A stretch of 35,575 nt of DNA from a virus. Lineage: Duplodnaviria; Heunggongvirae; Uroviricota; Caudoviricetes. The DNA is taken from IMG/VR virus record IMGVR_UViG_2579779007_000007. The stretch is one strand, 5' to 3'. A program made the translations under genes and the position numbers. Shown here piece by piece: positions 12,535 through 34,123 of the stretch (the first letter of the stretch is position 1; each line of letters starts with the position of its first letter). The notes under the pieces are model-generated. The model saw only the letters and a program-made list of their open reading frames with translations. It had not been told where the DNA came from and made no database searches.

Positions 12535-14547
12535 ATGCTTAAATTTCGCCGCGATCTTAACGGTTACGGTGGAGTTATTAATGAAGGGCATAACGATCAA
12601 TACGAATTTGAAATTGCTTTCTCAAGTACACAGCCTTATCAGCGCCAATTTTGGGATGAGCAAAATCAAGAAATGGTGGTATTAGATGAAATTCTGGTAC
12701 ATACACCGGAAGCGGTTGATCTGTCTCGTCTGAATAATAACGCTCCGTTGCTGTTCAATCACAATTTCGATAATCACATTGGTGTAGTTTGTAACGCTCG
12801 AATCGATGCGGATAACGTAGGTCGTGCTCTGGTTAAGTTCTCCAAGCATGGGACTTTGGCTAATGATATTCGTAATAAAGTCATTGAAGGTACGATGGAA
12901 AAAATTTCGGTCGGCTATGACATTAAAGAATATCACATCGACTACACCAAAGGACAATTGATTGTTACTAAGTGGGCACCCTATGAACTCTCATTTGTCA
13001 CCGTTCCCGCAGACGATACGGTCGGTTTAAATCGCTCTCTAAATACTATCACAGTTAATTTGGAGGCTAAACGCGATATGACTAAAGAACAAATCGAAGA
13101 AATCAAAGAAGAACAAGAACCCGCTCAGGTTGAAGAAACTCCGGTAGAAGAAAATAAAGAACCGGAAGTTGAAGAAACTCAAGAGCGCCAAGTTGAAGAG
13201 AATAAAGAAGATGAAAATCTCGAAGACGGAAAAGACGCTGAACATCCTGAAAGTGTTGATGATGATAGTTCAACTGTTCGGGAAACAGAAGAAGTAAAAG
13301 AAGAACGTGAAGCTGCTCCGGTTGAAGAAGAAAAAACCGAGGAAGTGGCTGAACGTTCCGAAGAAGACGAATTAGAAATTCGCGAAATTGCACGCGAGTT
13401 AAATATTAACGAAGACGATGAAGAATTTAAACGCGCATTGGCAAATAAAGAAATTACGCCGGAAGCATTCCGCACTAAGGCACTAAATAACATTACCAAT
13501 GCTCAACGTAATAACGAACAAATTAATAAGGAACAAATCATGGAAAAAACTTTCGATCTTAATAACGTAATCCGCTCCCTGGTAGATGGCGACGTGCTCG
13601 GCGCTAACGAAGCTGAATATTCCGCAATGGCTGCTACTGCAACTATGCAGCGTGGTCGTGCTGCTCGTGGTGGCTCTGTATTCGTTCCGGCTGCTGCTAT
13701 GCGTGCTGCTGCTGATGGCAACACCAAAGCTAATCTGGTTGCTATCACTGACGAAAAACTGATGACTGAATCCTACATCGAAATGCTGATGCCTCAGAGT
13801 GTTTTAGGCCGCCTCGGGGTGACTGTTTATAGTGGCTTGACTTCTCCGACCGCTATTCCAAAAATGACTAAATCCAGCGTTGACGCTTTCGGATTCGTAG
13901 ATGAAAATGGCGCTGCCCCCGAGTCACATGCGGAATTTTCGAACGTGAAACTGTCTCCGAAAACTTTTGCTGGTGGCAACCCGATCAGCCGTCAGTCGCT
14001 GAAAACCGTTCCGGGCATCGCTACCCTGATCACCGATCACATTAACAAATCTGTTCGGATCAAACTGGAACAACTGATTCTGTCTGATAAAGAAAATGCT
14101 CGTGGTCCGGCTGGTCTGGTTAAGCAACTGGTAGACGCTAGCCGCGTTACCAAGAAAGCTGCTTTCTCTTATAAAGATTTCCTCAAGGAGATTGCTCAGC
14201 TTACGGACGCTGGCGTTCCTGCTCAGGCGATCAAGTTTGCGATGAGCGGTGCAACTGCTGCTGAACTGGAATCTACCCTGAAAGATAACGGCGTTTCCGG
14301 TTATATCATCGAAAACGGCAAACTGGCTGGTTACGAAGTAGTTACTTCTGGCGTTATTCCGGCAGATCACATCGTTCTGGGTGACTTCTCCGGTATTACC
14401 ATCGGTGAGTGGGGCGGTCTGGAACTTGACATGGATCTAACTACATATCGGGATCGTGGGGCGGTAGTGCCTAGAATCTTTGTAGATTTGGACTACGTTG
14501 TAGCACAGCCGGAAGCGCTGAAAGTTCTTCACATCTCCGCTGACTGA
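12535..14547 (+). CDS. fused prohead protease (HK97/S78-like) - acidic scaffold-like linker - HK97-fold major capsid protein
   Basis: 670 aa. Residues 1-170 match the S78 prohead protease pattern, residues about 180-330 are E-rich, the C-terminal 340 aa are HK97-MCP-like. Ends with TGA. Confidence 0.8.
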   Translation: MLKFRRDLNGYGGVINEGHNDQYEFEIAFSSTQPYQRQFWDEQNQEMVVLDEILVHTPEAVDLSRLNNNAPLLFNHNFDNHIGVVCNARIDADNVGRALVKFSKHGTLANDIRNKVIEGTMEKISVGYDIKEYHIDYTKGQLIVTKWAPYELSFVTVPADDTVGLNRSLNTITVNLEAKRDMTKEQIEEIKEEQEPAQVEETPVEENKEPEVEETQERQVEENKEDENLEDGKDAEHPESVDDDSSTVRETEEVKEEREAAPVEEEKTEEVAERSEEDELEIREIARELNINEDDEEFKRALANKEITPEAFRTKALNNITNAQRNNEQINKEQIMEKTFDLNNVIRSLVDGDVLGANEAEYSAMAATATMQRGRAARGGSVFVPAAAMRAAADGNTKANLVAITDEKLMTESYIEMLMPQSVLGRLGVTVYSGLTSPTAIPKMTKSSVDAFGFVDENGAAPESHAEFSNVKLSPKTFAGGNPISRQSLKTVPGIATLITDHINKSVRIKLEQLILSDKENARGPAGLVKQLVDASRVTKKAAFSYKDFLKEIAQLTDAGVPAQAIKFAMSGATAAELESTLKDNGVSGYIIENGKLAGYEVVTSGVIPADHIVLGDFSGITIGEWGGLELDMDLTTYRDRGAVVPRIFVDLDYVVAQPEALKVLHISAD

Positions 14548-14676
14548 ACTAGCGTAGAACCTTCTGAACCTTCCCCCGATTTGGGGGAAGAAAATCTGAT
14601 TCCATCTCAGGAAGAAGAAGTTCAAGAGGTTACGGCGAAAGCCACAGTTAAAAAACAACGTAAAACTAAAGAATAA
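14548..14676 (+). other. in-frame 42-codon extension after the capsid TGA (candidate readthrough segment)
   Basis: Same frame as 12535..14547, no ATG. Encodes TSVEPSEPSPDLGEENLIPSQEEEVQEVTAKATVKKQRKTKE, then TAA. Confidence 0.45.
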
Positions 14677-14681
14677 TAATT

Positions 14682-14710
14682 AGCCCTGCCTTAACGGTGG
14701 GGCTTTTTTG
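14682..14710 (+). terminator. intrinsic terminator after the capsid extension
   Basis: AGCCCTGCC-ttaac-GGTGGGGCT followed by TTTTTT. Near-identical copy at 20632..20660. Confidence 0.7.
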
Positions 14711-14739: not shown

Positions 14740-15030
14740 ATGTTCAAATTATCAGAATCACAATTATCAAGAATGTTTAAGAGTGCTCCTGTATTTTCGG
14801 TGGAAGGTGGTAAATCAATTCGTGCTTATCATGAAATTACCACTACCGACGAACAAGGGGTAATTACAGAATCAGAATTTCTATTTTGTCGTGAGGGAGA
14901 CTTAAATCAGGGTGATGTTGTCATTGTAGACGGTGAACGCTTCAAAGTTCAATACGTTAAGCGCAATGGTGATAATACTTCTGATTGCTTTATTGCTCGT
15001 GCAGGGGGTACACATGCTCGCTACCGTTAA
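14740..15030 (+). CDS. head-tail connector/adaptor protein (putative, 96 aa)
   Basis: Position after capsid gene, RBS AAGGGGGTAA. Confidence 0.55.
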   Translation: MFKLSESQLSRMFKSAPVFSVEGGKSIRAYHEITTTDEQGVITESEFLFCREGDLNQGDVVIVDGERFKVQYVKRNGDNTSDCFIARAGGTHARYR

Positions 15031-15439
15031 TAATATGCCTAGACTGAAAATCAAACGCGCCTTGCAGGATATTATCGAACAAGATTTAGGTCTGGCTTTA
15101 AACGTAGAACAAACTCAGCAAGGCTTTATTAGTGATGACGTGGTTTGTTGGATTACCGGAATGAATGAGACTTACAATAGGGTCCGTGGTGGTAATGCAA
15201 TGCAAGCTGAATGCGTTATCGAAATGCAGTTGTATTCTCAGAATCATGAAACCAAAATTCATGAGGGTATTTGCCAGATAATCCAGATTCAGCCAGATAA
15301 CCCACGTTTTAAAGATTTGGGCTTCTCAATTTCAGATATCACTCCAGTAGCCTCTAATACCGATTATGACGATGATTCTAGTGATGGGGGTATCGTTGGG
15401 ACACTTAGCCTTAAATTTTCTTATCTAGCGCGTTTTTAA
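15014..15439 (+). CDS. head-tail joining / tail completion protein (putative, 141 aa)
   Basis: Start chosen at the ATG preceded by AGGGGG, overlapping the upstream stop. The ORF-track start at 14933 is probably too far upstream. Confidence 0.5.
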   Translation: MLATVNNMPRLKIKRALQDIIEQDLGLALNVEQTQQGFISDDVVCWITGMNETYNRVRGGNAMQAECVIEMQLYSQNHETKIHEGICQIIQIQPDNPRFKDLGFSISDITPVASNTDYDDDSSDGGIVGTLSLKFSYLARF

Positions 15440-15448
15440 GGGGTAATA

Positions 15449-16282
15449 ATGAATATTACACAAGATAACTTAGATATTTTCACTGGATCACATGTTGAAG
15501 TGTCGATCTCTAACCAGATAGACAATCAGGTCGACTTTTTCGATCCTAGCTTTAGTTCTATGGAGAACATCGCAGCATTCCCTACGCTAACCGAATCCAC
15601 AGAGATAGAAACTCTGGAAGAGTACGATCAGGACGCTACGGGGAAACTTGCTGGTTATCGTAGACTGGAACCGACAACACTCACATTAAACCGTGTTCTT
15701 GACGATGAACATCAAGCAATGTTGATGAAAGCGGTAGAGGATAAAACACCTTTACGCTTCCGTATGTTCTATGTTGTGAACTCTGGCTATAGTGCTGCTA
15801 ACACTGGTTACTATGTCATCTATGACGCTTATGTCACTAGTCACAAAACCCGTGGCGCAGATAACAAAGCTGTAACACTGGAATTTAAACTTGAACCAGA
15901 TGGCGGGATTTTGGCAAGGGGTATAGCGACCGAGGGAAAAATTCTGCGACAAGGGGATTATGGCGTAGGTGCAGGTGTACATCCATTCACGGGTCCAATT
16001 GATAGTGATGCTTTAGCAGGAAACCGTTTCGTAACTTACAAGGGAACTGCTAGCGGTAATCCATACTCAGCCGACACATCATTAATTCACCTTCAAGCTA
16101 ATGAGCATGGCGCATGGCAATTAACCTGTAATACTTCCGGTGCACCACGTTTACGTGTCCGAAATATTCAGGAAAACGGTCGCTCTGAATGGATCAAGGT
16201 ATATTCCACCAATGAGAAACCGACACCTAGCGAAATTGGCGCAGTGGCTAAGACTGACCGGATCGATTTCGGCGAATACTAA
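15449..16282 (+). CDS. tail-tube-like protein with C-terminal fibre-like extension (paralog of the 20030 gene)
   Basis: 277 aa. N-terminus (NLDIFTGSHV...GKL...LTLT) aligns with the 156-aa protein at 20030. C-terminus carries KPTPSEIGA, also present in the tail fibre. Confidence 0.55.
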   Translation: MNITQDNLDIFTGSHVEVSISNQIDNQVDFFDPSFSSMENIAAFPTLTESTEIETLEEYDQDATGKLAGYRRLEPTTLTLNRVLDDEHQAMLMKAVEDKTPLRFRMFYVVNSGYSAANTGYYVIYDAYVTSHKTRGADNKAVTLEFKLEPDGGILARGIATEGKILRQGDYGVGAGVHPFTGPIDSDALAGNRFVTYKGTASGNPYSADTSLIHLQANEHGAWQLTCNTSGAPRLRVRNIQENGRSEWIKVYSTNEKPTPSEIGAVAKTDRIDFGEY

Positions 16283-16315
16283 AGGATTCTCCTACCTAAA
16301 TAAAACATGAACGTT

Positions 16316-16346
16316 GGGAGGTTAACGCCTCCCTTATTCCTGTTTT
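16316..16346 (+). terminator. putative intrinsic terminator
   Basis: GGGAGG-ttaacg-CCTCCC followed by a T-rich tract. Confidence 0.45.
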
Positions 16347-16364
16347 ATAGTGAGGTGATTCTAG

Positions 16365-19300
16365 ATGCAATCAATCCAATTTAAACGCACACAAACGGCT
16401 GGTAAAAAGCCGACGCCGGAACAATTATCACAGGGTGAGATCGCCTTACAACTGGCGGACCATGTGATTTACACCAAAGACAAAAATAATAACGTAGTCC
16501 AAATTAGTGTTTCTCCAGAAAAACACGCTGAACTTAACACTAAAGTAGACAATAACAAAACTAGCACTGACCGTGTTATTGCTTCCAACAAACAAGAGGC
16601 CGCTAATAATCTGGCTAGTGCTAAAGCTGAACTGAATCAGACTATTACCACGAAAGATACAGCGACCAATAAGCGCATTGATGCTACCAACACCACTGTT
16701 AGTAACTTAACCCAGACAGTTACGGCAAATAAAACCGATGCCGACACTAAGATCAATAACCTTACGGGGACCGTATCTGCGAATAAGACCGCAATTGAAA
16801 GAACCGTTGCCGCAAACAAATCTGATGCAGATAGCAAACATGCAGCTTTAACGAAAACGGTCACTGACAATAACACCGCGATTAACAACAAGGTTAATAC
16901 CACTAACACCAACGTTAGCAACTTAACTAAAACTGTTACTGCAAATAAAACCGATGCAGATAACAAAATTTCTAGCTTAACTAGCGCGGTTGCAGCTAAC
17001 AAGACAGCGATCGAAAAGACTGTTTCCGACAATAAGAAAGACGCGGATACTAAGATTACCAATCTTACTGGCACTGTTAATAGCAACCATACCGCAATTA
17101 ACAACAAGGTAGACCAGAATAAATCTTCTACTGATGCCGCAATTGCAGCCGCTAACAAACGAATTGATGGTATTGAAGGTAGCAATGATGCTCTTTACAT
17201 CAAGAAGAATACCAATACTAAGCATGGTGGGTATCTGTTAAGCAAGACAGCTAACTATCTGGAAGACCAGACATCACGAGATCTTAACTACTTTGGTGCT
17301 TTCCGTACCAATGGTCAAGATGGACTCATGGATCTAACTCTTAACGTTCCTCACTCTTCCGGTAAAGCGCACGGTCGCGGATTTACTTTCCGTTATGCGT
17401 CTGGTGGATCTCGTGTTGAAACCTATGGTTTTGATAGAGAAGGACAGAAGAACTTTAGCTATAAGATGTATCACGAAGGTGATAAACCGACTCCTGCTGA
17501 AATTGGCGCATATACCAAAGGCGAAATTGATAAGATGTTTATTAAAAATGTCACAATGTCTGTTCCTTCTGGTAGTGAATCCCGTGCTTATTTCAAGATT
17601 GCTACGGCTACGATCCCACAAAATGGTCGTATGGTAATGCTTCGTATCTTCGGTGGTAATGGTTATAACGTTAACTCCTATGATCAGGTTGATTTCCTTG
17701 AAATTGTTATCCGTAGTGGTAACGATAGACCTAAAGGTGTTAGTGTTGCTGCATATCGTCGAAATGCTCTTAACGTTCATCAAGTATTTGCGGTTAATAC
17801 TTCCGGTGATAACTACGACATTTACGTTAACTACGGTCGTTATACTGATAACGTTATTGTCGAATATGGTAAGACTAGCGGTGTTTCACTGACTGTTCAT
17901 GACACCCCAGATATGACTAACGTTAAGCCGTCTACTGGTGTTACAGATGGACGTGTTATTACAATGTTCAATACCGAAAACAAGGCCGGAACGTTGATGT
18001 TTGATAATAACGGTCAGGGAACATATGATATTGTCAGTTTGAATAACGATTCAGGTACTGGTAAAAAATATCTGCGTAAATTCCGTAGTAAAGCCGCAGA
18101 AACAATCTGGCATGAAACTGTTCAAGGTAACGTATATCGTTTAGCGACTGGCACTACCGATTCTAGCGAAGTTCTACGAATCACTGGTCGCACTATGTAT
18201 ACTGGTAAAGCTGTTTTTGATGCCGGATCTAATACTATTCGTATGCAGCGACCGAATGGTCAAAGTAACTATTTGGAATATTGGGATAACCGTAACGGTG
18301 CAAATAAACGTCAAGGTTGGATCGGTTATGGAAATGCCGATACTAACGCTATGCAGATGTATAACGATAGCGGTACTAACAATATTGGCTTAGAACAAAG
18401 CGGTCAAATCTCTCTGAATACTGGATCTACTAAAGTAGTTTATACCAACGGCGAGTATGTATCTGCTAACTCAAATGCATTCCGTATGATTTACGGTAAC
18501 TATGGTGCATTCTGGCGTAATGATGGTCAAAACGTATATTTTCTGTCTACTGCCGAAAATGATAAATTTGGTGGTTGGAACGGCTATCGTCCATTCATTT
18601 ACAATCTGGGTAGCGGTAATGTTACTTTGGGTGGTGATGGTAACGAAGGTGCATTAGTCTTAGAACGTGCAAGTCGTGCAGCTCGTTTTGCTGGAAACGC
18701 TTTCATCAAAGGTCAACATTTAACACTTGATGCTGGTGCTGGACAATCCCGCGACTATTTCCGTTTTAACCATTGGGGTGATAGCAATAACGCTCGCGAC
18801 AACATTCTATATCTCGAAGACAGCAAAGGACGCCATTTCAGCACCGAACGTAATATGGCTACAGGTGCATTAAAAGCATACTTCTTAGGAGATCTTGAAG
18901 TTGCTGGTCAAATGCGATGGGGTAAGAATACCGGACAATCTAGCTTCAATATTCGTGCATGGGGTAATGATACTCGTAAACAAGTATTAGAATGCGCAGA
19001 TGAAAGCGGCTGGCATTTCTACACACAGCGTGCTGGCGGTCCTGATACTACCGCAATCGAGTTTAGCGTAAACGGTAAAATTAACGCTCCCCGACTGTCT
19101 ATTAGTCAGGATGCAACCATTCCTAAGTTTAATAGCGGTTTTGGTGTTGGTGTTGCTAACGGATTGGGTGGAAATTCTATTGTTTTAGGCGATAGTGATA
19201 CTGGATTTAAACAAAACGGTGATGGTGTCCTTGATACCTACGCTAATAACGTTAATGTTGTTCGCCATACGTCAGGCGGTGTTACATTTAACCGTCGTGT

Positions 19301-19973
19301 TGTTGTTGCTAACAAAAATGGTTTAGGTTATTCCGATATCTCTGATGTAACTCGTGACCGTGCTCCATTCCTGGTTAACATGGATAGTATTAAGGGGTCT
19401 GCTGCATATTTCCCGATCATCGCTGGTTACAGTAACTTAGGTGATGTTGGTTATCGTCAGTCCTTCGAGTTTGGTTGGACGGGTAGCGGGTCGAATAGCA
19501 CATGGCGTACTGGTATTATCCGTATGCGTGGCGATAACGCCAACGGGCAGCAAGCACGCTGGGAATTTACTATGGATGGTGATTTTACCTGCCCCCGTAA
19601 CGGTAGCTTTAACGATGTTTACATTCGCTCTGACTCCCGTTTGAAGATTAACAAGGAAGAATTACAGGACGGCGCATTAGAGAAAGTAAACTCCCTGAAA
19701 GTCTACACCTACGATAAAGTTAAATCTCTTTCAGATGACACAGTGGTTAAACGCGAAGTAGGTATTATTGCTCAGGATCTGGAAGAAGTGTTGCCGGAAG
19801 CAGTAGGTATTCAATCCACCGAAGATCCAGAACAACCGGAAGCAATTAAGACTATTTCTAACTCTGCTGTTAATGCCTTGATTATTAAAGCGATTCAGGA
19901 AATGGACGCCAAATATCAAGCTAAGATTGAAGCATTGACTAAAGAGATTGCCGAACTCAAAGCAACTAAATAA
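16365..19973 (+). CDS. long tail fibre with C-terminal S74 intramolecular-chaperone domain
   Basis: 1202 aa. Repetitive shaft, KPTPAEIGAY motif, C-terminal YIRSDSRLKINKEEL... matching the autoproteolytic chaperone domain of T5 pb1 and endosialidase-type fibres. Confidence 0.85.
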   Translation: MQSIQFKRTQTAGKKPTPEQLSQGEIALQLADHVIYTKDKNNNVVQISVSPEKHAELNTKVDNNKTSTDRVIASNKQEAANNLASAKAELNQTITTKDTATNKRIDATNTTVSNLTQTVTANKTDADTKINNLTGTVSANKTAIERTVAANKSDADSKHAALTKTVTDNNTAINNKVNTTNTNVSNLTKTVTANKTDADNKISSLTSAVAANKTAIEKTVSDNKKDADTKITNLTGTVNSNHTAINNKVDQNKSSTDAAIAAANKRIDGIEGSNDALYIKKNTNTKHGGYLLSKTANYLEDQTSRDLNYFGAFRTNGQDGLMDLTLNVPHSSGKAHGRGFTFRYASGGSRVETYGFDREGQKNFSYKMYHEGDKPTPAEIGAYTKGEIDKMFIKNVTMSVPSGSESRAYFKIATATIPQNGRMVMLRIFGGNGYNVNSYDQVDFLEIVIRSGNDRPKGVSVAAYRRNALNVHQVFAVNTSGDNYDIYVNYGRYTDNVIVEYGKTSGVSLTVHDTPDMTNVKPSTGVTDGRVITMFNTENKAGTLMFDNNGQGTYDIVSLNNDSGTGKKYLRKFRSKAAETIWHETVQGNVYRLATGTTDSSEVLRITGRTMYTGKAVFDAGSNTIRMQRPNGQSNYLEYWDNRNGANKRQGWIGYGNADTNAMQMYNDSGTNNIGLEQSGQISLNTGSTKVVYTNGEYVSANSNAFRMIYGNYGAFWRNDGQNVYFLSTAENDKFGGWNGYRPFIYNLGSGNVTLGGDGNEGALVLERASRAARFAGNAFIKGQHLTLDAGAGQSRDYFRFNHWGDSNNARDNILYLEDSKGRHFSTERNMATGALKAYFLGDLEVAGQMRWGKNTGQSSFNIRAWGNDTRKQVLECADESGWHFYTQRAGGPDTTAIEFSVNGKINAPRLSISQDATIPKFNSGFGVGVANGLGGNSIVLGDSDTGFKQNGDGVLDTYANNVNVVRHTSGGVTFNRRVVVANKNGLGYSDISDVTRDRAPFLVNMDSIKGSAAYFPIIAGYSNLGDVGYRQSFEFGWTGSGSNSTWRTGIIRMRGDNANGQQARWEFTMDGDFTCPRNGSFNDVYIRSDSRLKINKEELQDGALEKVNSLKVYTYDKVKSLSDDTVVKREVGIIAQDLEEVLPEAVGIQSTEDPEQPEAIKTISNSAVNALIIKAIQEMDAKYQAKIEALTKEIAELKATK
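16640..17170 (+). repeat. intragenic tandem repeats encoding two ~69-aa shaft repeats
   Basis: Repeated NLT.TVTANKTDAD.KI..LT..V.ANKTAIE.TV. The low-complexity repeats create the spurious antisense ORF 16637..17185. Confidence 0.6.
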
Positions 19974-19980
19974 TAAAAGT

Positions 19981-19999
19981 CGGGGGACTAGTTCCCCCG
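19981..19999 (+). other. stem-loop after the fibre gene (weak terminator candidate)
   Basis: CGGGGGA-ctagt-TCCCCCG with no clean T-run. Confidence 0.3.
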
Positions 20000-20029
20000 T
20001 AATAACAATTTTAATTAAGGGGTAATTCT

Positions 20030-20500
20030 ATGTCTCAATTTAATGATATTTTTACTGGTGGTCTGGTAAGTCTGTTCTATCACGCTGATACCACTAACAC
20101 CGCTCTCGATCACTCCGGTTACGAAGAAATTAAAGAGTGTGCTGGTTTTCCTGAAACTGGTATCGAGCGCGGTACTGTAGAAGTTAAATCCTTCTCTTCT
20201 CAGTATAACCGTAAGCTGGTAGGGAAGCTGAACGTTCCTGATCTGACTCTTACGGTGAATTACATCCCCGGGGAGAGTGTCCATGAGAAGCTCATAAAGG
20301 CTGCCGAAGACGGTACTCGAATTCAGATTAAGATTGAATACTATGTTGATGCAGCAAAACAGACTGGTATTCGCACCGCTTTCAACGGCTTCATTTCTAA
20401 AGTTGCTATGAACGGTGGCGATGAAGAAGTGGTAACTAAAGAGTTTACCTTCGCGGTGGACGGAAAGCCGATCAAACAGGAAATCTTCACTGCCGGATGA
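20030..20500 (+). CDS. major tail tube protein (putative)
   Basis: 156 aa, upstream of the chaperone and tape-measure genes. Paralogous to the N-domain of 15449..16282. Ends with TGA. Confidence 0.6.
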   Translation: MSQFNDIFTGGLVSLFYHADTTNTALDHSGYEEIKECAGFPETGIERGTVEVKSFSSQYNRKLVGKLNVPDLTLTVNYIPGESVHEKLIKAAEDGTRIQIKIEYYVDAAKQTGIRTAFNGFISKVAMNGGDEEVVTKEFTFAVDGKPIKQEIFTAG

Positions 20501-20626
20501 ACTAACGAAGAACTTCCTTTAATAGAACCGGAACCACTACCGGAACATGAAGCGGTGGTGATTCCAGAAGTAGAAGAAGTTACGGCGAAAGCCACAGCAA
20601 AACGAGGCCGCAAGGCTAAGAATTAA
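20501..20626 (+). other. in-frame 41-codon extension after the tail-tube TGA (candidate readthrough segment)
   Basis: Same frame as 20030..20500, no in-frame ATG. Encodes TNEELPLIEPEPLPEHEAVVIPEVEEVTAKATAKRGRKAKN, then TAA. Confidence 0.45.
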
Positions 20627-20631
20627 TTTTA

Positions 20632-20660
20632 AGCCCTGCCTTAATGGTGGGGCTTTTTTA
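20632..20660 (+). terminator. intrinsic terminator after the tail-tube extension
   Basis: AGCCCTGCC-ttaat-GGTGGGGCT followed by TTTTTT. Confidence 0.7.
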
Positions 20661-20674
20661 TTGGAGTAATCAAA

Positions 20675-21181
20675 ATGGCAAATGTCGTTAAAGTTCCTGG
20701 CTGGATCGGGTCATCTGCTGTATCGGTGACGGGTAAGCGATGGATGAAAGAAGCACTAACAGCTTTAAAAGTTCCGGCTCCGCGTAATATGTCGGCAATG
20801 GCTGGTCGTGGTATGGATACGGTTGTAGCTACTGCTGCATGGTCTACTTCATTGGGTAATAACTGGGGGGTAACTGCTTCAAACTATCCTGTTTCCGGTA
20901 TGCAAAGCAAAGGATCTATGGAGAACCCCGAAAACGTGGGCGTAGGGCGTCTGATTGGCGTTATCGTTGGTCAATTCAATGGCGGTACTCCTACTATGGC
21001 TGTATATCTCCAGAACGGTAGAGCGGGGAATATAACCGTTAATTTGGGTGGTGCTACTGTCACTGTTCCTTATAACAGTATGCAAAGTGGTTTTCATTAC
21101 TATTGGTTAAGCAATCCTCCGGCTGCTTTCCTCAATAACATTAAGAAGACTGGCACTAAGCAGACTTTGAAAATCTCTTAA
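20675..21181 (+). CDS. hypothetical tail-associated protein (168 aa)
   Basis: ORF with RBS GGAG, located between tail tube and chaperone genes. Confidence 0.5.
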   Translation: MANVVKVPGWIGSSAVSVTGKRWMKEALTALKVPAPRNMSAMAGRGMDTVVATAAWSTSLGNNWGVTASNYPVSGMQSKGSMENPENVGVGRLIGVIVGQFNGGTPTMAVYLQNGRAGNITVNLGGATVTVPYNSMQSGFHYYWLSNPPAAFLNNIKKTGTKQTLKIS

Positions 21182-32394: not shown

Positions 32395-34074
32395 TTAAAT
32401 TCCAAATTCTTGTAATGGACCTGGTATTTCTTCTTCTGGTTTCCAGTTCTTATCTGTCAGCATGTCTAAACATGGATGCAGAACAAGCCCGTTACTCTCC
32501 AGAATCTGCCTATCATTGATAGTCTTCAAATCAACGAAGATCCGGCCTTTCCTCGGTCCTCTTGAATTTTCTATTACAACTCTCTGGGTCTTGCCATCGA
32601 TGTATTCCAGTACAAACAAGTTTTTGTACTTGTCAATCCTGCTACACCCGATCCGTTTTAGAGCTTGCTTAATCTTAAACCGGACCTTAATGCGATCCTC
32701 GTTGTAAACATCTTCTAAATCAAATTCTGCGAGCTTCTCCCAGCCTTGAGAGTCAACAGAATACATTTCCTCTTCTGCCATCTTAAGTTGATTGTAGAGT
32801 GTTTCACGCTCGCTATTGAGGGTAGTAATCTGATCGGCTAGCTCCTTCGTTGCTCCTGTCATAGCAGAAAGGGTAATCAGGTTATCAATCTTGCGTGATA
32901 TTTCATCAATCTGTACTTTCAAAGCCGGAACCGGATTAGCCTTATCTTCAGCAATCCAGATTTTATCAGCCAGCAATTGCAATACAGCTTTCTCTAATTG
33001 GTCGCCGCGAAAACTCCAGTTTGTATGCACACATTCAATACGACTAGAGCGCATTGCATCGCATGAATAACGATATTGGTTAGGCCGTCTGTTTGTTCCT
33101 TTCACCTTAACCATAGCGGAACCGCAATGTTCACATTTCAATAGACCAACACCACTAAGCAAGGGAATAGGTTTAGCTTCTTCTTTGTCTCCAAAGTTAC
33201 ATGCTCTAACACCAATGCTTTTCTTAAGGTGATAAAACTCAGCGTCATCTAGCACACGAGGATAATAATCCTTTAACTCATACTTAACGCCATCTACAGA
33301 GATTTCCTTGATACCAATCAAAGCGCGGGTATGGAACAACCTTTCAATCATTGCCCGTGACCAGTTTGAATGCCTCTTGTGACTTGCGGCTGGTGGTGGT
33401 GTGTATGTCGCGTTAAGGTGATCCAGTATCTCGGCGGTTGACCGTCCATTCCTGCGTAATTCCACAACTTCCTGAACAATAGGGAAGAAGACCGGATGAG
33501 GAAGCACATAACCAGATGTGGTATCAGTCCACCACATATTCTTTCCAATTTCCTCGATTGCAACAGCCGGATTTTGTGGATTTTCTTGATGAGCTTTAAT
33601 CTTAATCAGTGCGCTTGAGTTAGTACGATTGCGCTTAGTCTGGCTTTCCTCATTACCACGGATGAATAAAAGGATGGAGAACATCAGGTCCATCGGGTTA
33701 GCGGTAACAGTATCAAGCGAGTAGATCTTGTTATCCATGCCAGTAACAATGGTTATCCCCCTACGGATGATTGAAAGGAATAACTCCTGCGCACTGACAA
33801 TATCGGCACGGGATAAACGGTCCAAGTTTTCGATGAATAGCCAGCTACCAACAGGAACGGATCTACCTATTGCATCAAGGAAACGAGATAGCGCCCCTGT
33901 TTTGGAGTTAGCACCCTTAAACGCAGATACACCCAGATCCTGATAATCATTTACCAGTTCAAGGTCATACTTTACCGCAATCTCTCTAGCCATCCTGATT
34001 TGTCGTTCATAACTCGAACCATCATTCTGACGCATAGACGAGAAGCGAATATACGAATACAGTTTAGTTTTCAT
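32395..34074 (-). CDS. large serine recombinase (candidate integrase)
   Basis: About 560 aa. N-terminal resolvase-type motif YIRFSSMRQ, recombinase domain, zinc-ribbon cysteines (CEHCGSAM...YRYSC), C-terminal coiled coil. ATG start at 34074; the ORF track uses a TTG at 34089. Confidence 0.85.
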   Translation of the reverse strand: MKTKLYSYIRFSSMRQNDGSSYERQIRMAREIAVKYDLELVNDYQDLGVSAFKGANSKTGALSRFLDAIGRSVPVGSWLFIENLDRLSRADIVSAQELFLSIIRRGITIVTGMDNKIYSLDTVTANPMDLMFSILLFIRGNEESQTKRNRTNSSALIKIKAHQENPQNPAVAIEEIGKNMWWTDTTSGYVLPHPVFFPIVQEVVELRRNGRSTAEILDHLNATYTPPPAASHKRHSNWSRAMIERLFHTRALIGIKEISVDGVKYELKDYYPRVLDDAEFYHLKKSIGVRACNFGDKEEAKPIPLLSGVGLLKCEHCGSAMVKVKGTNRRPNQYRYSCDAMRSSRIECVHTNWSFRGDQLEKAVLQLLADKIWIAEDKANPVPALKVQIDEISRKIDNLITLSAMTGATKELADQITTLNSERETLYNQLKMAEEEMYSVDSQGWEKLAEFDLEDVYNEDRIKVRFKIKQALKRIGCSRIDKYKNLFVLEYIDGKTQRVVIENSRGPRKGRIFVDLKTINDRQILESNGLVLHPCLDMLTDKNWKPEEEIPGPLQEFGI

Positions 34075-34081
34075 ACCATTT

Positions 34082-34123
34082 CCAAACAAAAACGCCCCTA
34101 CCGCGTATTATAACGATAGGGGC
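34082..34123 (-). terminator. minus-strand terminator upstream of the recombinase
   Basis: On the minus strand: GCCCCTATCG-loop-CGGTAGGGGC followed by GUUUUUGUUUGG. The loop contains TATAAT. Confidence 0.4.

What the first reader, a model, noticed from the sequence alone, without database searches (positions are those of the whole stretch)
15449..20500. Two paralogous tail-tube-like genes flank the tail fibre gene; the first shares a KPTP(S/A)EIGA motif with the fibre
The N-terminal 150 aa of the 277-aa protein align with the 156-aa tail-tube protein (DIFTG, GKL, LTLT, AED blocks). Its C-terminal domain ends with EKPTPSEIGAVAKTD, echoing DKPTPAEIGAYTKGE in the fibre (around nt 17470-17540). 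This suggests a duplicated [tube-like + fibre] module inserted upstream of the canonical tube-chaperone-tape measure block, with the tube paralog possibly acting as a fibre-anchoring or decoration subunit.
Basis: seen in the sequence. Interest (0 to 1): 0.5.

Follow-up and report, generated by a model that had tools for sequence, protein, structure and literature searches.

The report
Tube-like anchor for T4-type fibre
In an E. coli prophage with a long flexible tail, an old duplicate of the tail-tube protein carries at its end the same connector piece that phage T4 uses to join two parts of its long tail fibre, so it most likely plugs the neighbouring T4-type fibre into the tail, a way of attaching side fibres not described before.

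Summary

The motif is not specific evidence. It is a generic linker repeated 3-10 times in hundreds of enterobacterial tail fibres.

The informative part is the C-terminal 100 aa of the 277-aa protein. It is homologous to the C-terminus of T-even gp36, ending in the same ...IDFG(E/T)(Y/F)-COOH peptide. The fibre starts with the gp37 N-terminal domain, the part that binds gp36 in T4.

A Proteus relative has the fibre split into two genes. The break recreates the same pair of ends.

The layout terminator, anchor, fibre, tube is conserved in every informative related locus across Enterobacterales. Anchor length varies from 275 to 1209 aa.

Best reading: a tube-fold ring subunit that anchors a T-even-type distal half-fibre through a gp36/gp37-type joint. 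Its position in the tail (tip end or neck end) is unresolved. All evidence is computational.

In passing: the capsid and tube genes both end in UGA followed by homologous in-frame extensions, which suggests readthrough. Many relatives lack a tape measure gene.

The parts
15014..15439 (+). Tail terminator (141 aa), immediately upstream of the anchor
15449..15928 (+). Anchor protein, N-terminal tail-tube-fold domain (aa 1-160)
15929..16255 (+). Anchor protein, gp36-like module (aa 161-269): conserved Gly-rich stretch GDYGVGAG..GNRFVT, a small beta domain, then the W-K-V-Y-x3-EKPTPSEIGA linker (nt 16213-16243)
   Evidence: Invariant residues in 43 homologues. aa 180-277 align end to end with RB49 gp36 aa 396-496 (31% identity, E 1e-5). 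The profile hits fibre proteins and the cluster representative found at the gp36 position of a T4-like fibre operon, P0229. AF2 confidence is low for aa 164-204.
16256..16282 (+). Anchor C-terminal peptide DRIDFGEY plus stop: proposed docking end for the fibre N-terminal domain
   Evidence: [ILV]D[FLA]G.[FYL]-COOH is kept in all homologues of 275-1209 aa, whatever is inserted before it. The same type of end is found in T4 gp36 (..VQDFGYY) and RB49 gp36 (..VIDFGTF), and in the 198-aa proximal fibre piece of Proteus locus L010 (..IMDFGTF).
16316..16333 (+). Weak terminator-like hairpin between the anchor and fibre genes
   Evidence: GGGAGGTTAACGCCTCCC followed by TTATTCC.
16365..16529 (+). Fibre, gp37-type N-terminal domain (aa 1-55: MQSIQFKRTQTAGKKPTPEQLSQGEIALQLADHVIYTKD...)
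   Evidence: 32% identity, E 8e-15 to T4 gp37 aa 4-66; 37% to RB49 gp37. tblastn of the first 60 aa hits 1262 phage records; the 30 sampled rows are mostly ~165-176-kb genomes, many annotated as long tail fibre distal subunit. The domain is conserved at the start of the fibre gene in all related loci.
16530..17231 (+). Fibre, Ala/Thr/Asn-rich repeat rod (aa ~56-289), probably coiled coil
   Evidence: Direct repeat family D1, 38-nt units. Corresponds to the separate 198-aa gene in Proteus L010.
17232..19973 (+). Fibre, gp37-like body: knob with KPTPAEIGA (nt 17480-17510), Gp34_trimer domain (aa 656-746), S16-gp37-like tip segment, C-terminal Peptidase_S74 chaperone (aa 1089-1147)
   Evidence: Pfam, PHROGs, PDB sequence hits 4uxe, 5nxh, 6f45. 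73-84% nucleotide identity to gp37 of Krischvirus and other T-even phages over nt 17232-19904.
20030..20500 (+). Major tail tube protein (156 aa)
   Evidence: Pfam Phage_TTP_12 26.4 bits (cut-off 26.1); Phage_TTP_11 27.9 bits (cut-off 28.4). phrog_158 2.3e-21. Followed by a strong terminator, as the capsid gene is. Precedes the chaperones and tape measure gene.
20501..20626 (+). In-frame 41-codon extension after the tube UGA (TNEELPLIEPEPLPEHEAVVIPEVEEVTAKATAKRGRKAKN*), homologous to the extension after the capsid gene (14548-14676)
   Evidence: (repeat D2).
20631..20655 (+). Intrinsic terminator, near-identical copy of the one after the capsid gene (14682-14704)
20675..21181 (+). gp38-like adhesin (168 aa), partner of the gp37-type fibre tip, here placed after the tube gene
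   Evidence: Pfam Gp38_N 4.2e-15. phrog_1121 'tail fiber adhesin' 2.9e-35. Present in the 21 loci whose fibres are closest to this one and absent in the 14 others.

Best explanation
The 277-aa protein is a fibre anchor made of two parts.

Its first 160 residues are an old duplicate of the phage's own tail tube protein. They most likely take a place in a ring of the tail tube stack.

Its last ~100 residues are the C-terminal module of a T-even gp36-type fibre connector: a small beta domain, the KPTP linker, and the terminal ...IDFGEY peptide.

The fibre encoded next door starts with the gp37-type N-terminal domain. In T4 that region is where trimeric gp36 binds. So the anchor replaces the whole gp34-gp35-gp36(N) proximal apparatus of a T-even long tail fibre. 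It plugs a gp37/gp38-type distal half-fibre straight into a siphovirus tail.

Shown: the paralogy, the tube fold, homology of both junction ends to gp36-C and gp37-N, strict adjacency and conservation, and a natural split of the fibre that recreates the same pair of ends.

Inferred: that the two ends bind each other here, that the tube domain sits in the tube stack, and the stoichiometry. gp36 is a trimer, so six anchor subunits would carry two fibres.

Unresolved: which ring. My estimates:
- About 0.4 for a ring next to the distal tail protein, as for T5 p140.
- About 0.3 for a ring under the tail terminator, as gene order suggests.
- About 0.1 for scattered along the tube.
For: (1) Tube paralogy and fold. 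Anchors and tubes form two clades across 14 genomes, indicating one old duplication.

(2) gp36-like end. Anchor aa 180-277 align with RB49 gp36 aa 396-496, 31% identity, E 1e-5, both running to the C-terminus. A profile of anchor aa 160-277, searched against 1.8 billion proteins, finds P0229. P0229 occupies the gp36 position of a T4-like gp34-35-36-37-38-holin operon and ends ..VIDFGTF. T4 gp36 ends ..VQDFGYY.

(3) gp37-like start of the fibre: E 8e-15 to T4 gp37 aa 4-66. The first 60 aa hit 1262 phage records; the sampled rows are mostly T-even-sized genomes, many annotated as the distal subunit.

(5) Natural experiment in Proteus prophage L010. The proximal 198-aa gene ends ..IMDFGTF. The distal 675-aa gene starts with a new copy of the gp37-N domain (51% identity to window fibre aa 1-51), then continues at window fibre aa 291 (E 4e-25).

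(6) In all 60+ related loci with enough sequence, the anchor is immediately followed by a fibre gene with this N-terminal domain. Anchors of 275 to 1209 aa all keep the terminal peptide after a variable fibre-like insert.

(7) The 277-aa form is conserved at 275-278 aa and 48-97% identity in E. coli, Shigella, Salmonella, Providencia and Proteus, and at 281 aa in Edwardsiella.

(8) A separate tail terminator and a separate distal tail protein exist, so the anchor is neither of these.

(9) Precedent: T5 p140 is a tube-protein duplicate whose ring carries the fibre-anchoring collar (PMC10038345).
Against: No experiment and no multimer model supports the contact; it rests on homology and gene context.

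That the C-terminus of gp36 is the part that meets gp37 in T4 follows from fibre polarity. It is not stated in the text I read.

The AF2 monomer model is only moderate (pLDDT 67.7), and the conserved aa 164-204 are below 50.

Foldseek against viral models aligns the whole protein with ordinary two-domain major tail proteins of the tube plus Ig/FN3 type. A plain decoration role therefore fits the fold.

A six-fold ring does not naturally carry trimeric fibres.

The co-variation of C-terminal variants with fibre N-terminal variants may only reflect shared ancestry.

The 277-aa protein has no Pfam or NCBIfam match.
Confidence: 0.7

Rival explanations
1. Decorated minor tube subunit. The 277-aa protein co-polymerises with the 156-aa tube protein along the tail. 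Its C-terminal beta domain is a surface decoration or weak adhesin, like the Ig-like domain of lambda gpV or SPP1 gp17.1*. It has no direct link to the fibre.
For: It retains the complete tube fold with only 8 gap positions relative to the tube. Foldseek aligns the full length with two-domain major tail proteins. It has the same ribosome-binding context as the tube gene, TTAAGGGGTAAT.
Against: The C-terminal module is homologous to a fibre connector end (gp36), not to Ig or FN3 decoration domains. Homologues carry up to 1000 aa of fibre rod and still end in the same peptide. The gene is always adjacent to a fibre gene with the gp37-N domain. The Proteus split reuses the same pair of ends.
Confidence: 0.12
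2. Assembly factor only. The protein uses its tube-like domain and gp36-like end to help fold or deliver the fibre, and it is not kept in the virion.
For: Fibre genes are often accompanied by assembly proteins. There are no virion data.
Against: The fibre already has its own intramolecular S74 chaperone. A complete tube fold conserved across genera has no obvious chaperone role. gp36, the homologue of the C-terminal part, is a structural component of the T4 fibre.
Confidence: 0.05
3. Decaying remnant of a longer tube-fibre fusion, cut at the KPTP recombination hot spot when the T-even-type fibre arrived. No present function.
For: Longer relatives exist, of 342-1209 aa. The fibre body shows recent exchange with Krischvirus.
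Against: Length is fixed at 275-281 aa in six genera with 48-97% identity and many invariant residues. The terminal peptide after the motif is retained. No frameshifts were seen among the full-length loci, apart from one split copy in L074.
Confidence: 0.03

Closest known systems
T5 p140 (minor tail tube protein) with the p132 collar, which anchor the L-shaped fibres pb1 (PMC10038345; DT57C LtfC in PMC10713586)
   Different: p140 is a tandem double tube domain forming a trimer. It has no decoration and needs a separate Ig-like dodecameric collar into which the fibre N-termini are woven. Here there is a single tube domain, covalently fused to a gp36-type connector end. The duplication is independent, since the protein is closest to its own phage's tube. 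No additional gene lies between the terminator and the tube other than the fibre; no search for a p132 homologue was run.
T-even gp36 / gp37 junction of the long tail fibre (T4, RB49)
   Same: The C-terminal module and ...DFGx(F/Y) end of gp36 are present in the anchor. The gp37 N-terminal domain is present in the fibre. The gene order connector-then-gp37 is the same. A gp38-type adhesin and an S74-ended gp37 are present, as in RB49-like phages.
   Different: The gp36 N-terminal domain (MADLK.GST.GGS.IW.QGN) that meets gp35/gp34 is replaced by a tube domain. There are no gp34 or gp35 genes. The host virion is a siphovirus with a lambda gpJ-type central fibre. The gp38 gene lies after the tube gene.
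Other described side-fibre attachments in siphophage-type tails: Ur-lambda Stf N-terminal Ig dodecamer around the distal tail protein; monocin distal tail protein galectin domain; F-pyocin fibres on the central fibre helix (PMC13455828)
   Same: Side fibres added to a lambda-like tail tip with a gpJ-type central fibre.
   Different: None of these uses a tube-fold subunit that itself carries the fibre stem.
Major tail proteins with C-terminal Ig/FN3 domains (lambda gpV; SPP1 gp17.1*)
   Same: A tube domain followed by a small C-terminal beta domain.
   Different: In those phages the decorated protein is the major tube protein itself, or a frameshift variant of it. The domain is an Ig-like decoration, not a fibre connector. 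Here it is a separate paralog next to a fibre gene.

Membership tests
Siphophage tail tube protein (lambda gpV-like; Pfam Phage_TTP_11/12, phrog_158) | Tail tube fold | tested here: met
Siphophage tail tube protein (lambda gpV-like; Pfam Phage_TTP_11/12, phrog_158) | Sequence match to a curated tube family model | tested here: inconclusive
   The 277-aa protein has no Pfam or NCBIfam hit, but hits phrog_158 at E 5.5e-8 and its own phage's tube at E 5e-13.
Siphophage tail tube protein (lambda gpV-like; Pfam Phage_TTP_11/12, phrog_158) | Gene directly precedes the chaperone pair and tape measure gene, and is followed by a strong terminator (the major, highly expressed subunit) | tested here: not met
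   This holds for the 156-aa gene, apart from the inserted gp38 gene. It does not hold for the 277-aa gene, which is followed by a weak hairpin and the fibre gene.
T5 p140-type minor tail tube protein | Arose by duplication of the phage's tube gene | tested here: met
   The duplication is independent of T5's.
T5 p140-type minor tail tube protein | Tandem double tube domain, undecorated, surrounded by a separate p132-type Ig collar | tested here: not met
   Single tube domain of 160 aa with its own C-terminal module. No additional gene lies between the terminator and the tube other than the fibre. No homology search for p132 was run.
T5 p140-type minor tail tube protein | Forms the ring between the last tube ring and the distal tail protein | not testable with these tools
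   Needs cryo-EM or a multimer model. Relatives without a distal tail protein or tape measure gene still keep the anchor.
T-even gp36 (distal connector of the long tail fibre) | C-terminal module ending ...KPTPx(E/D)(I/V)GA...(I/V)DFGx(F/Y)-COOH | tested here: met
   BLASTP E 1e-5 to the RB49 gp36 C-terminus. Same end type as T4 (DFGYY), RB49 and L075 (DFGTF).
T-even gp36 (distal connector of the long tail fibre) | Encoded immediately upstream of a gp37 homologue carrying the gp37 N-terminal domain | tested here: met
T-even gp36 (distal connector of the long tail fibre) | gp36 N-terminal domain (joins gp35 and the proximal half-fibre) | tested here: not met
   The N-terminus is a tube domain. 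No similarity to gp36 aa 1-60. No gp34 or gp35 genes in the window.
T-even gp36 (distal connector of the long tail fibre) | Trimer bound to the N-terminal region of gp37 | not testable with these tools
   Only single-chain prediction was available. The T4 fact comes from PMC3004832.
Tail terminator (lambda gpU / T5 p142) | Terminator fold, one gene between the head-closure protein and the tube | tested here: not met

The most novel reading that the evidence does not exclude
The anchor ring sits directly under the tail terminator, as gene order suggests, rather than at the tip. In the many relatives that have terminator, anchor, fibre, tube, DUF6950 and a gpJ-like protein, but no chaperones, tape measure, distal tail protein or hub-N protein, the whole tail would be a stack of only a few rings. 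That would be a short-tailed virion built from siphovirus tube parts and armed with T-even-type fibres: a morphotype transition caught in one prophage family. The anchor would be the universal socket that lets gp37/gp38 host-range cassettes move between virulent T-even myophages and temperate phages.
Probability: 0.15. Interest if true: 0.85.

Novelty: new variant of a known kind. Interest (0 to 1): 0.6.

Why it matters
How side fibres are fastened to long non-contractile tails has been worked out for only a few phages: T5, Ur-lambda, monocin and F-pyocin. The T5 authors note that their solution is restricted to T5-like phages.

This prophage family occurs in about 1% of complete E. coli genomes and in several other Enterobacterales. 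It seems to use a different solution: a tube-protein duplicate that itself carries a T4-type fibre joint.

If this is right, it explains how a temperate siphophage can use, and recently exchange, gp37/gp38 receptor-binding cassettes with virulent T-even phages (73-84% nucleotide identity). It also offers a compact, defined socket for engineering host range: roughly 100 residues plus an 8-residue tail.

Tried and rejected
- NCBIfam scan of the anchor, fibre, tube, terminator and relatives found nothing.
- A PDB sequence search with the anchor family profile gave only chance hits. The same was true for the terminator family.
- Profile-profile alignment of the anchor C-domain against fibre aa 251-412 supports only 21 columns. 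The idea of a shared domain between anchor and fibre, beyond the linker, was dropped.
- 'The anchor is the tail terminator' was rejected once the 141-aa neighbour proved to have the terminator fold.
- Frameshift or readthrough fusion of the anchor and fibre genes was rejected. They are in different frames, and the intervening frame-0 ORF ends at 16310.
It was redone with database homologues.
- For the UGA extensions, selenocysteine was considered and rejected. A hairpin lies 22 nt after the capsid UGA but is absent from the short capsid variant and from the tube copy.
- No suppressor tRNA and no Rfam element are present in the window.
- Substitutions in the extension show no third-position bias (7:10:11), so that test is inconclusive.
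- A protein search for a sense-codon fusion of capsid plus extension returned nothing because of the word index.
- A 16-mer scan of IMG/VR found no fused variant.
Full report
**What is there.** The window is a 35-kb prophage inserted in hicB of E. coli CE0007a (100% identity). Related prophages occur in 55 of 5426 complete E. coli genomes.

The late operon reads in this order:
- terminase;
- a 164-aa head-tail joining protein;
- portal;
- protease-capsid fusion (670 aa);
- a 96-aa head-closure protein;
- a 141-aa protein;
- the 277-aa protein (15449-16282);
- a 1202-aa fibre (16365-19973);
- the 156-aa tube protein (20030-20500);
- a gp38-like adhesin;
- two chaperones;
- tape measure protein (810 aa);
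- distal tail protein;
- hub-N protein;
- DUF6950;
- a gpJ-like central fibre with the lambda gpJ receptor-binding domain.

The KPTP(S/A)EIGA motif is present in both proteins. It is 84% identical over 31 nt and occurs nowhere else in the window.

**The motif is generic.** Profile-profile alignment supports only 21 shared columns between the anchor C-domain and the fibre. A profile of anchor aa 160-277 was searched against 1.84 billion representative proteins and found 390 clusters. About nineteen have the domain at position ~160 behind a tube domain. The rest are long tail fibres with several matched stretches each, in which the '(V/I)Y(H/S)xxNKPTxx(D/E)(I/V)GA' motif recurs. The motif therefore marks a common fibre module and gives no specific link between the two genes.

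**What the C-terminal part is.** Alignment of homologues of 275 to 698 aa shows a fixed plan:
- a tube domain;
- a conserved stretch GDYGVGAG...GNRFVT...NPF...WQ...RVR...W.KVY..EKPTP.EIGAV;
- a variable insert of 0 to ~420 aa of fibre-like repeats; about 900 aa in P0090 and P0091;
- always a terminal peptide [ILV]D[FLA]G.[FYL]-COOH.

One hit without a tube domain, P0229, ends ..KPTPREVGAVPLNAVIDFGTF. It lies at the gp36 position of a T4-like long-tail-fibre operon, gp34-gp35-P0229-gp37-gp38-holin. RB49 gp36 ends identically, and T4 gp36 ends ..VQDFGYY. Anchor aa 180-277 align with RB49 gp36 aa 396-496 at 31% identity and E 1e-5, both running to the C-terminus.

**What the fibre N-terminus is.** Its first 63 residues match T4 gp37 aa 4-66 (E 8e-15) and RB49 gp37. 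The first 60 aa hit 1262 phage records; the sampled rows are mostly ~165-176-kb genomes, many annotated as the distal subunit. [quoted passage not shown] The pair 'anchor C-terminus plus fibre N-terminus' is therefore homologous to the gp36/gp37 junction.

**A natural experiment.** In Proteus prophage L010 the fibre is split into two genes.
- The proximal 198-aa piece has the gp37-N domain and the repeat rod, and ends ..LIMDFGTF.
- The distal 675-aa piece starts with a second gp37-N domain (51% identity to window fibre aa 1-51). It then continues at the equivalent of window fibre aa 291 (E 4e-25).

The break was repaired by adding exactly the two elements that also flank the anchor/fibre boundary. 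That is what one expects of a docking pair.

**Conservation.** In 63 IMG/VR loci and a further set of genome and metagenome loci, every locus with enough sequence has the same order. The terminator comes first, then the anchor (275-1209 aa), then a fibre gene with the gp37-N domain. An optional assembly or gp38-like gene follows, and the tube comes last.

Anchors and tubes form two separate clades, so there was one old duplication. The 277-aa form is stable in length across six genera.

In E. coli there are two fully linked haplotypes:
- Haplotype A (21 loci): anchor 88-100% identical to the window's, gp37-type fibre, tube allele A ending in TGA plus an extension, gp38 after the tube.
- Haplotype B (14 loci): anchor 79-84% identical, a different fibre, tube allele B at 58-60% identity ending in TAA, no gp38.

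The tube gene therefore lies inside the host-range cassette. The fibre body (17232-19904) is 73-84% identical in DNA to gp37 of Krischvirus and other T-even phages.

**Mechanism proposed.** The tube domain takes a place in a ring of the tube stack. The gp36-like module projects outward and trimerises. Its terminal peptide and last domain dock the gp37-N domain of the fibre. The fibre's S74 chaperone is cut off, and gp38 caps the tip.

The homologies and contexts are shown. The contact, the ring position and the stoichiometry are inferred.

For position, the T5 precedent (p140 next to the distal tail protein, PMC10038345) and the reach of a roughly 70-80-nm fibre on a roughly 120-nm tail favour the tip end. 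Both lengths are my estimates, from the T4 half-fibre and from tape measure length. Two observations favour the neck end or leave it open: gene order, and retention of the anchor in relatives that lack a distal tail protein and a tape measure.

The fold alone also fits a decorated tube subunit, which I keep as the main rival.

**Comparison with what is known.** Published side-fibre attachments in such tails are:
- the T5 p140/p132 collar;
- the Ur-lambda Stf Ig dodecamer around the distal tail protein;
- the monocin distal tail protein galectin domain;
- the F-pyocin central-fibre helix (PMC13455828; PMC10713586).

None is a tube-fold subunit covalently carrying a fibre connector. Only one relative turned up in the phage collection. 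It is a 698-aa fusion in the record of phage DCP80, annotated hypothetical. I rate the finding a new variant of a known kind.

**Seen in passing.** The capsid gene and tube allele A both end in TGA followed by homologous in-frame extensions and near-identical terminators.
- Across 38 capsid and 21 tube instances the stop is always TGA.
- Extension lengths vary (28-45 and 36-41 codons), always in frame and without internal stops.
- The cassette follows capsid alleles as divergent as 38% identity.
- Tube allele B and distant relatives end in TAA and have no extension.

This suggests programmed UGA readthrough that adds an acidic-then-basic tail to a fraction of capsid and tube subunits. It parallels the frameshift-extended capsid and tail proteins of Listeria phages (PMC5009743). 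Substitution patterns do not confirm purifying selection.

A monophyletic, widespread set of relatives lacks chaperones, tape measure, distal tail protein and hub-N genes altogether.

Noticed in passing
window 14545-14704 and 20498-20655: The capsid gene and the 156-aa tube gene both end in TGA-ACT. Each is followed by a homologous in-frame stretch of about 41 codons (..EEVTAKAT(V/A)K..RK.K*) and a near-identical terminator (94-nt repeat, 79% identity). In 38 capsid and 21 tube instances from relatives the stop is always TGA. Lengths vary only by whole codons, there is no internal stop, and no start codon lies inside the capsid-gene extension of the window. This is probably programmed UGA readthrough giving C-terminally extended capsid and tube subunits. 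The codon-position test was inconclusive.
   Followed up: partly
L008, L009, L054, L055, L057, L061-L065, L069, L073, L080, L081 (downstream of the tube gene): A monophyletic and very common subgroup of this prophage family goes straight from the tube gene to DUF6950 and the gpJ-like gene. It has no chaperones, tape measure, distal tail protein or hub-N gene, yet its ORFs are intact and diverged. The terminator protein P0238 is listed in 493 index blocks. Possible readings are a short-tailed virion or a satellite that borrows tail parts.
   Followed up: partly
window 20675-21181: The gp38-like adhesin gene lies after the tube gene here. In distant relatives the gp38-like gene lies between the fibre and the tube (for example L053, L056, L058, L059, L061, L070). 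In E. coli, anchor, fibre type, tube allele and gp38 presence are completely linked in two haplotypes, so the tube gene travels inside the host-range cassette.
   Followed up: partly
window 17232-19904 and 983-1369: There are two traces of recent DNA exchange with virulent RB49-like (Krischvirus) phages. The fibre body is 73-84% identical to T-even gp37 genes, including Krischvirus. A 385-nt piece of the minus-strand ORF 584-1363 (annotated as LprI family) is 95-97% identical to a hypothetical gene of these phages.
   Followed up: partly
L010 9882-12516 (Proteus mirabilis prophage): The fibre is split into a 198-aa proximal gene ending ..IMDFGTF and a 675-aa distal gene that begins with a second copy of the gp37-type N-terminal domain.
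   Followed up: yes
L001 (GenBank PQ671644, Escherichia phage DCP80) 1-22000: A 141-kb record classified as Gaprivervirus (Straboviridae) begins with about 22 kb that is syntenic with this siphovirus-type prophage family (terminase to tape measure, with a 698-aa anchor). The record may be a chimeric assembly.
   Followed up: no
window 15430-15451 and 20015-20032: Both tube paralogs are preceded by the same ribosome-binding context, TTAAGGGGTAAT.
   Followed up: no
window 16716-17110: The N-terminal rod of the fibre is built from diverged 38-nt-core repeats at spacings of 54, 75 and 87 nt, encoding Ala/Thr/Asn-rich 'TVTANKTDAD'-type units (family D1).
   Followed up: no
L002 5323-5631 and 40916-41032 (flanks of the window in E. 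coli CE0007a): The prophage splits the hicB antitoxin gene. It carries a serine recombinase (window 32395-34089, minus strand) and very few recognisable regulatory or replication genes.
   Followed up: no
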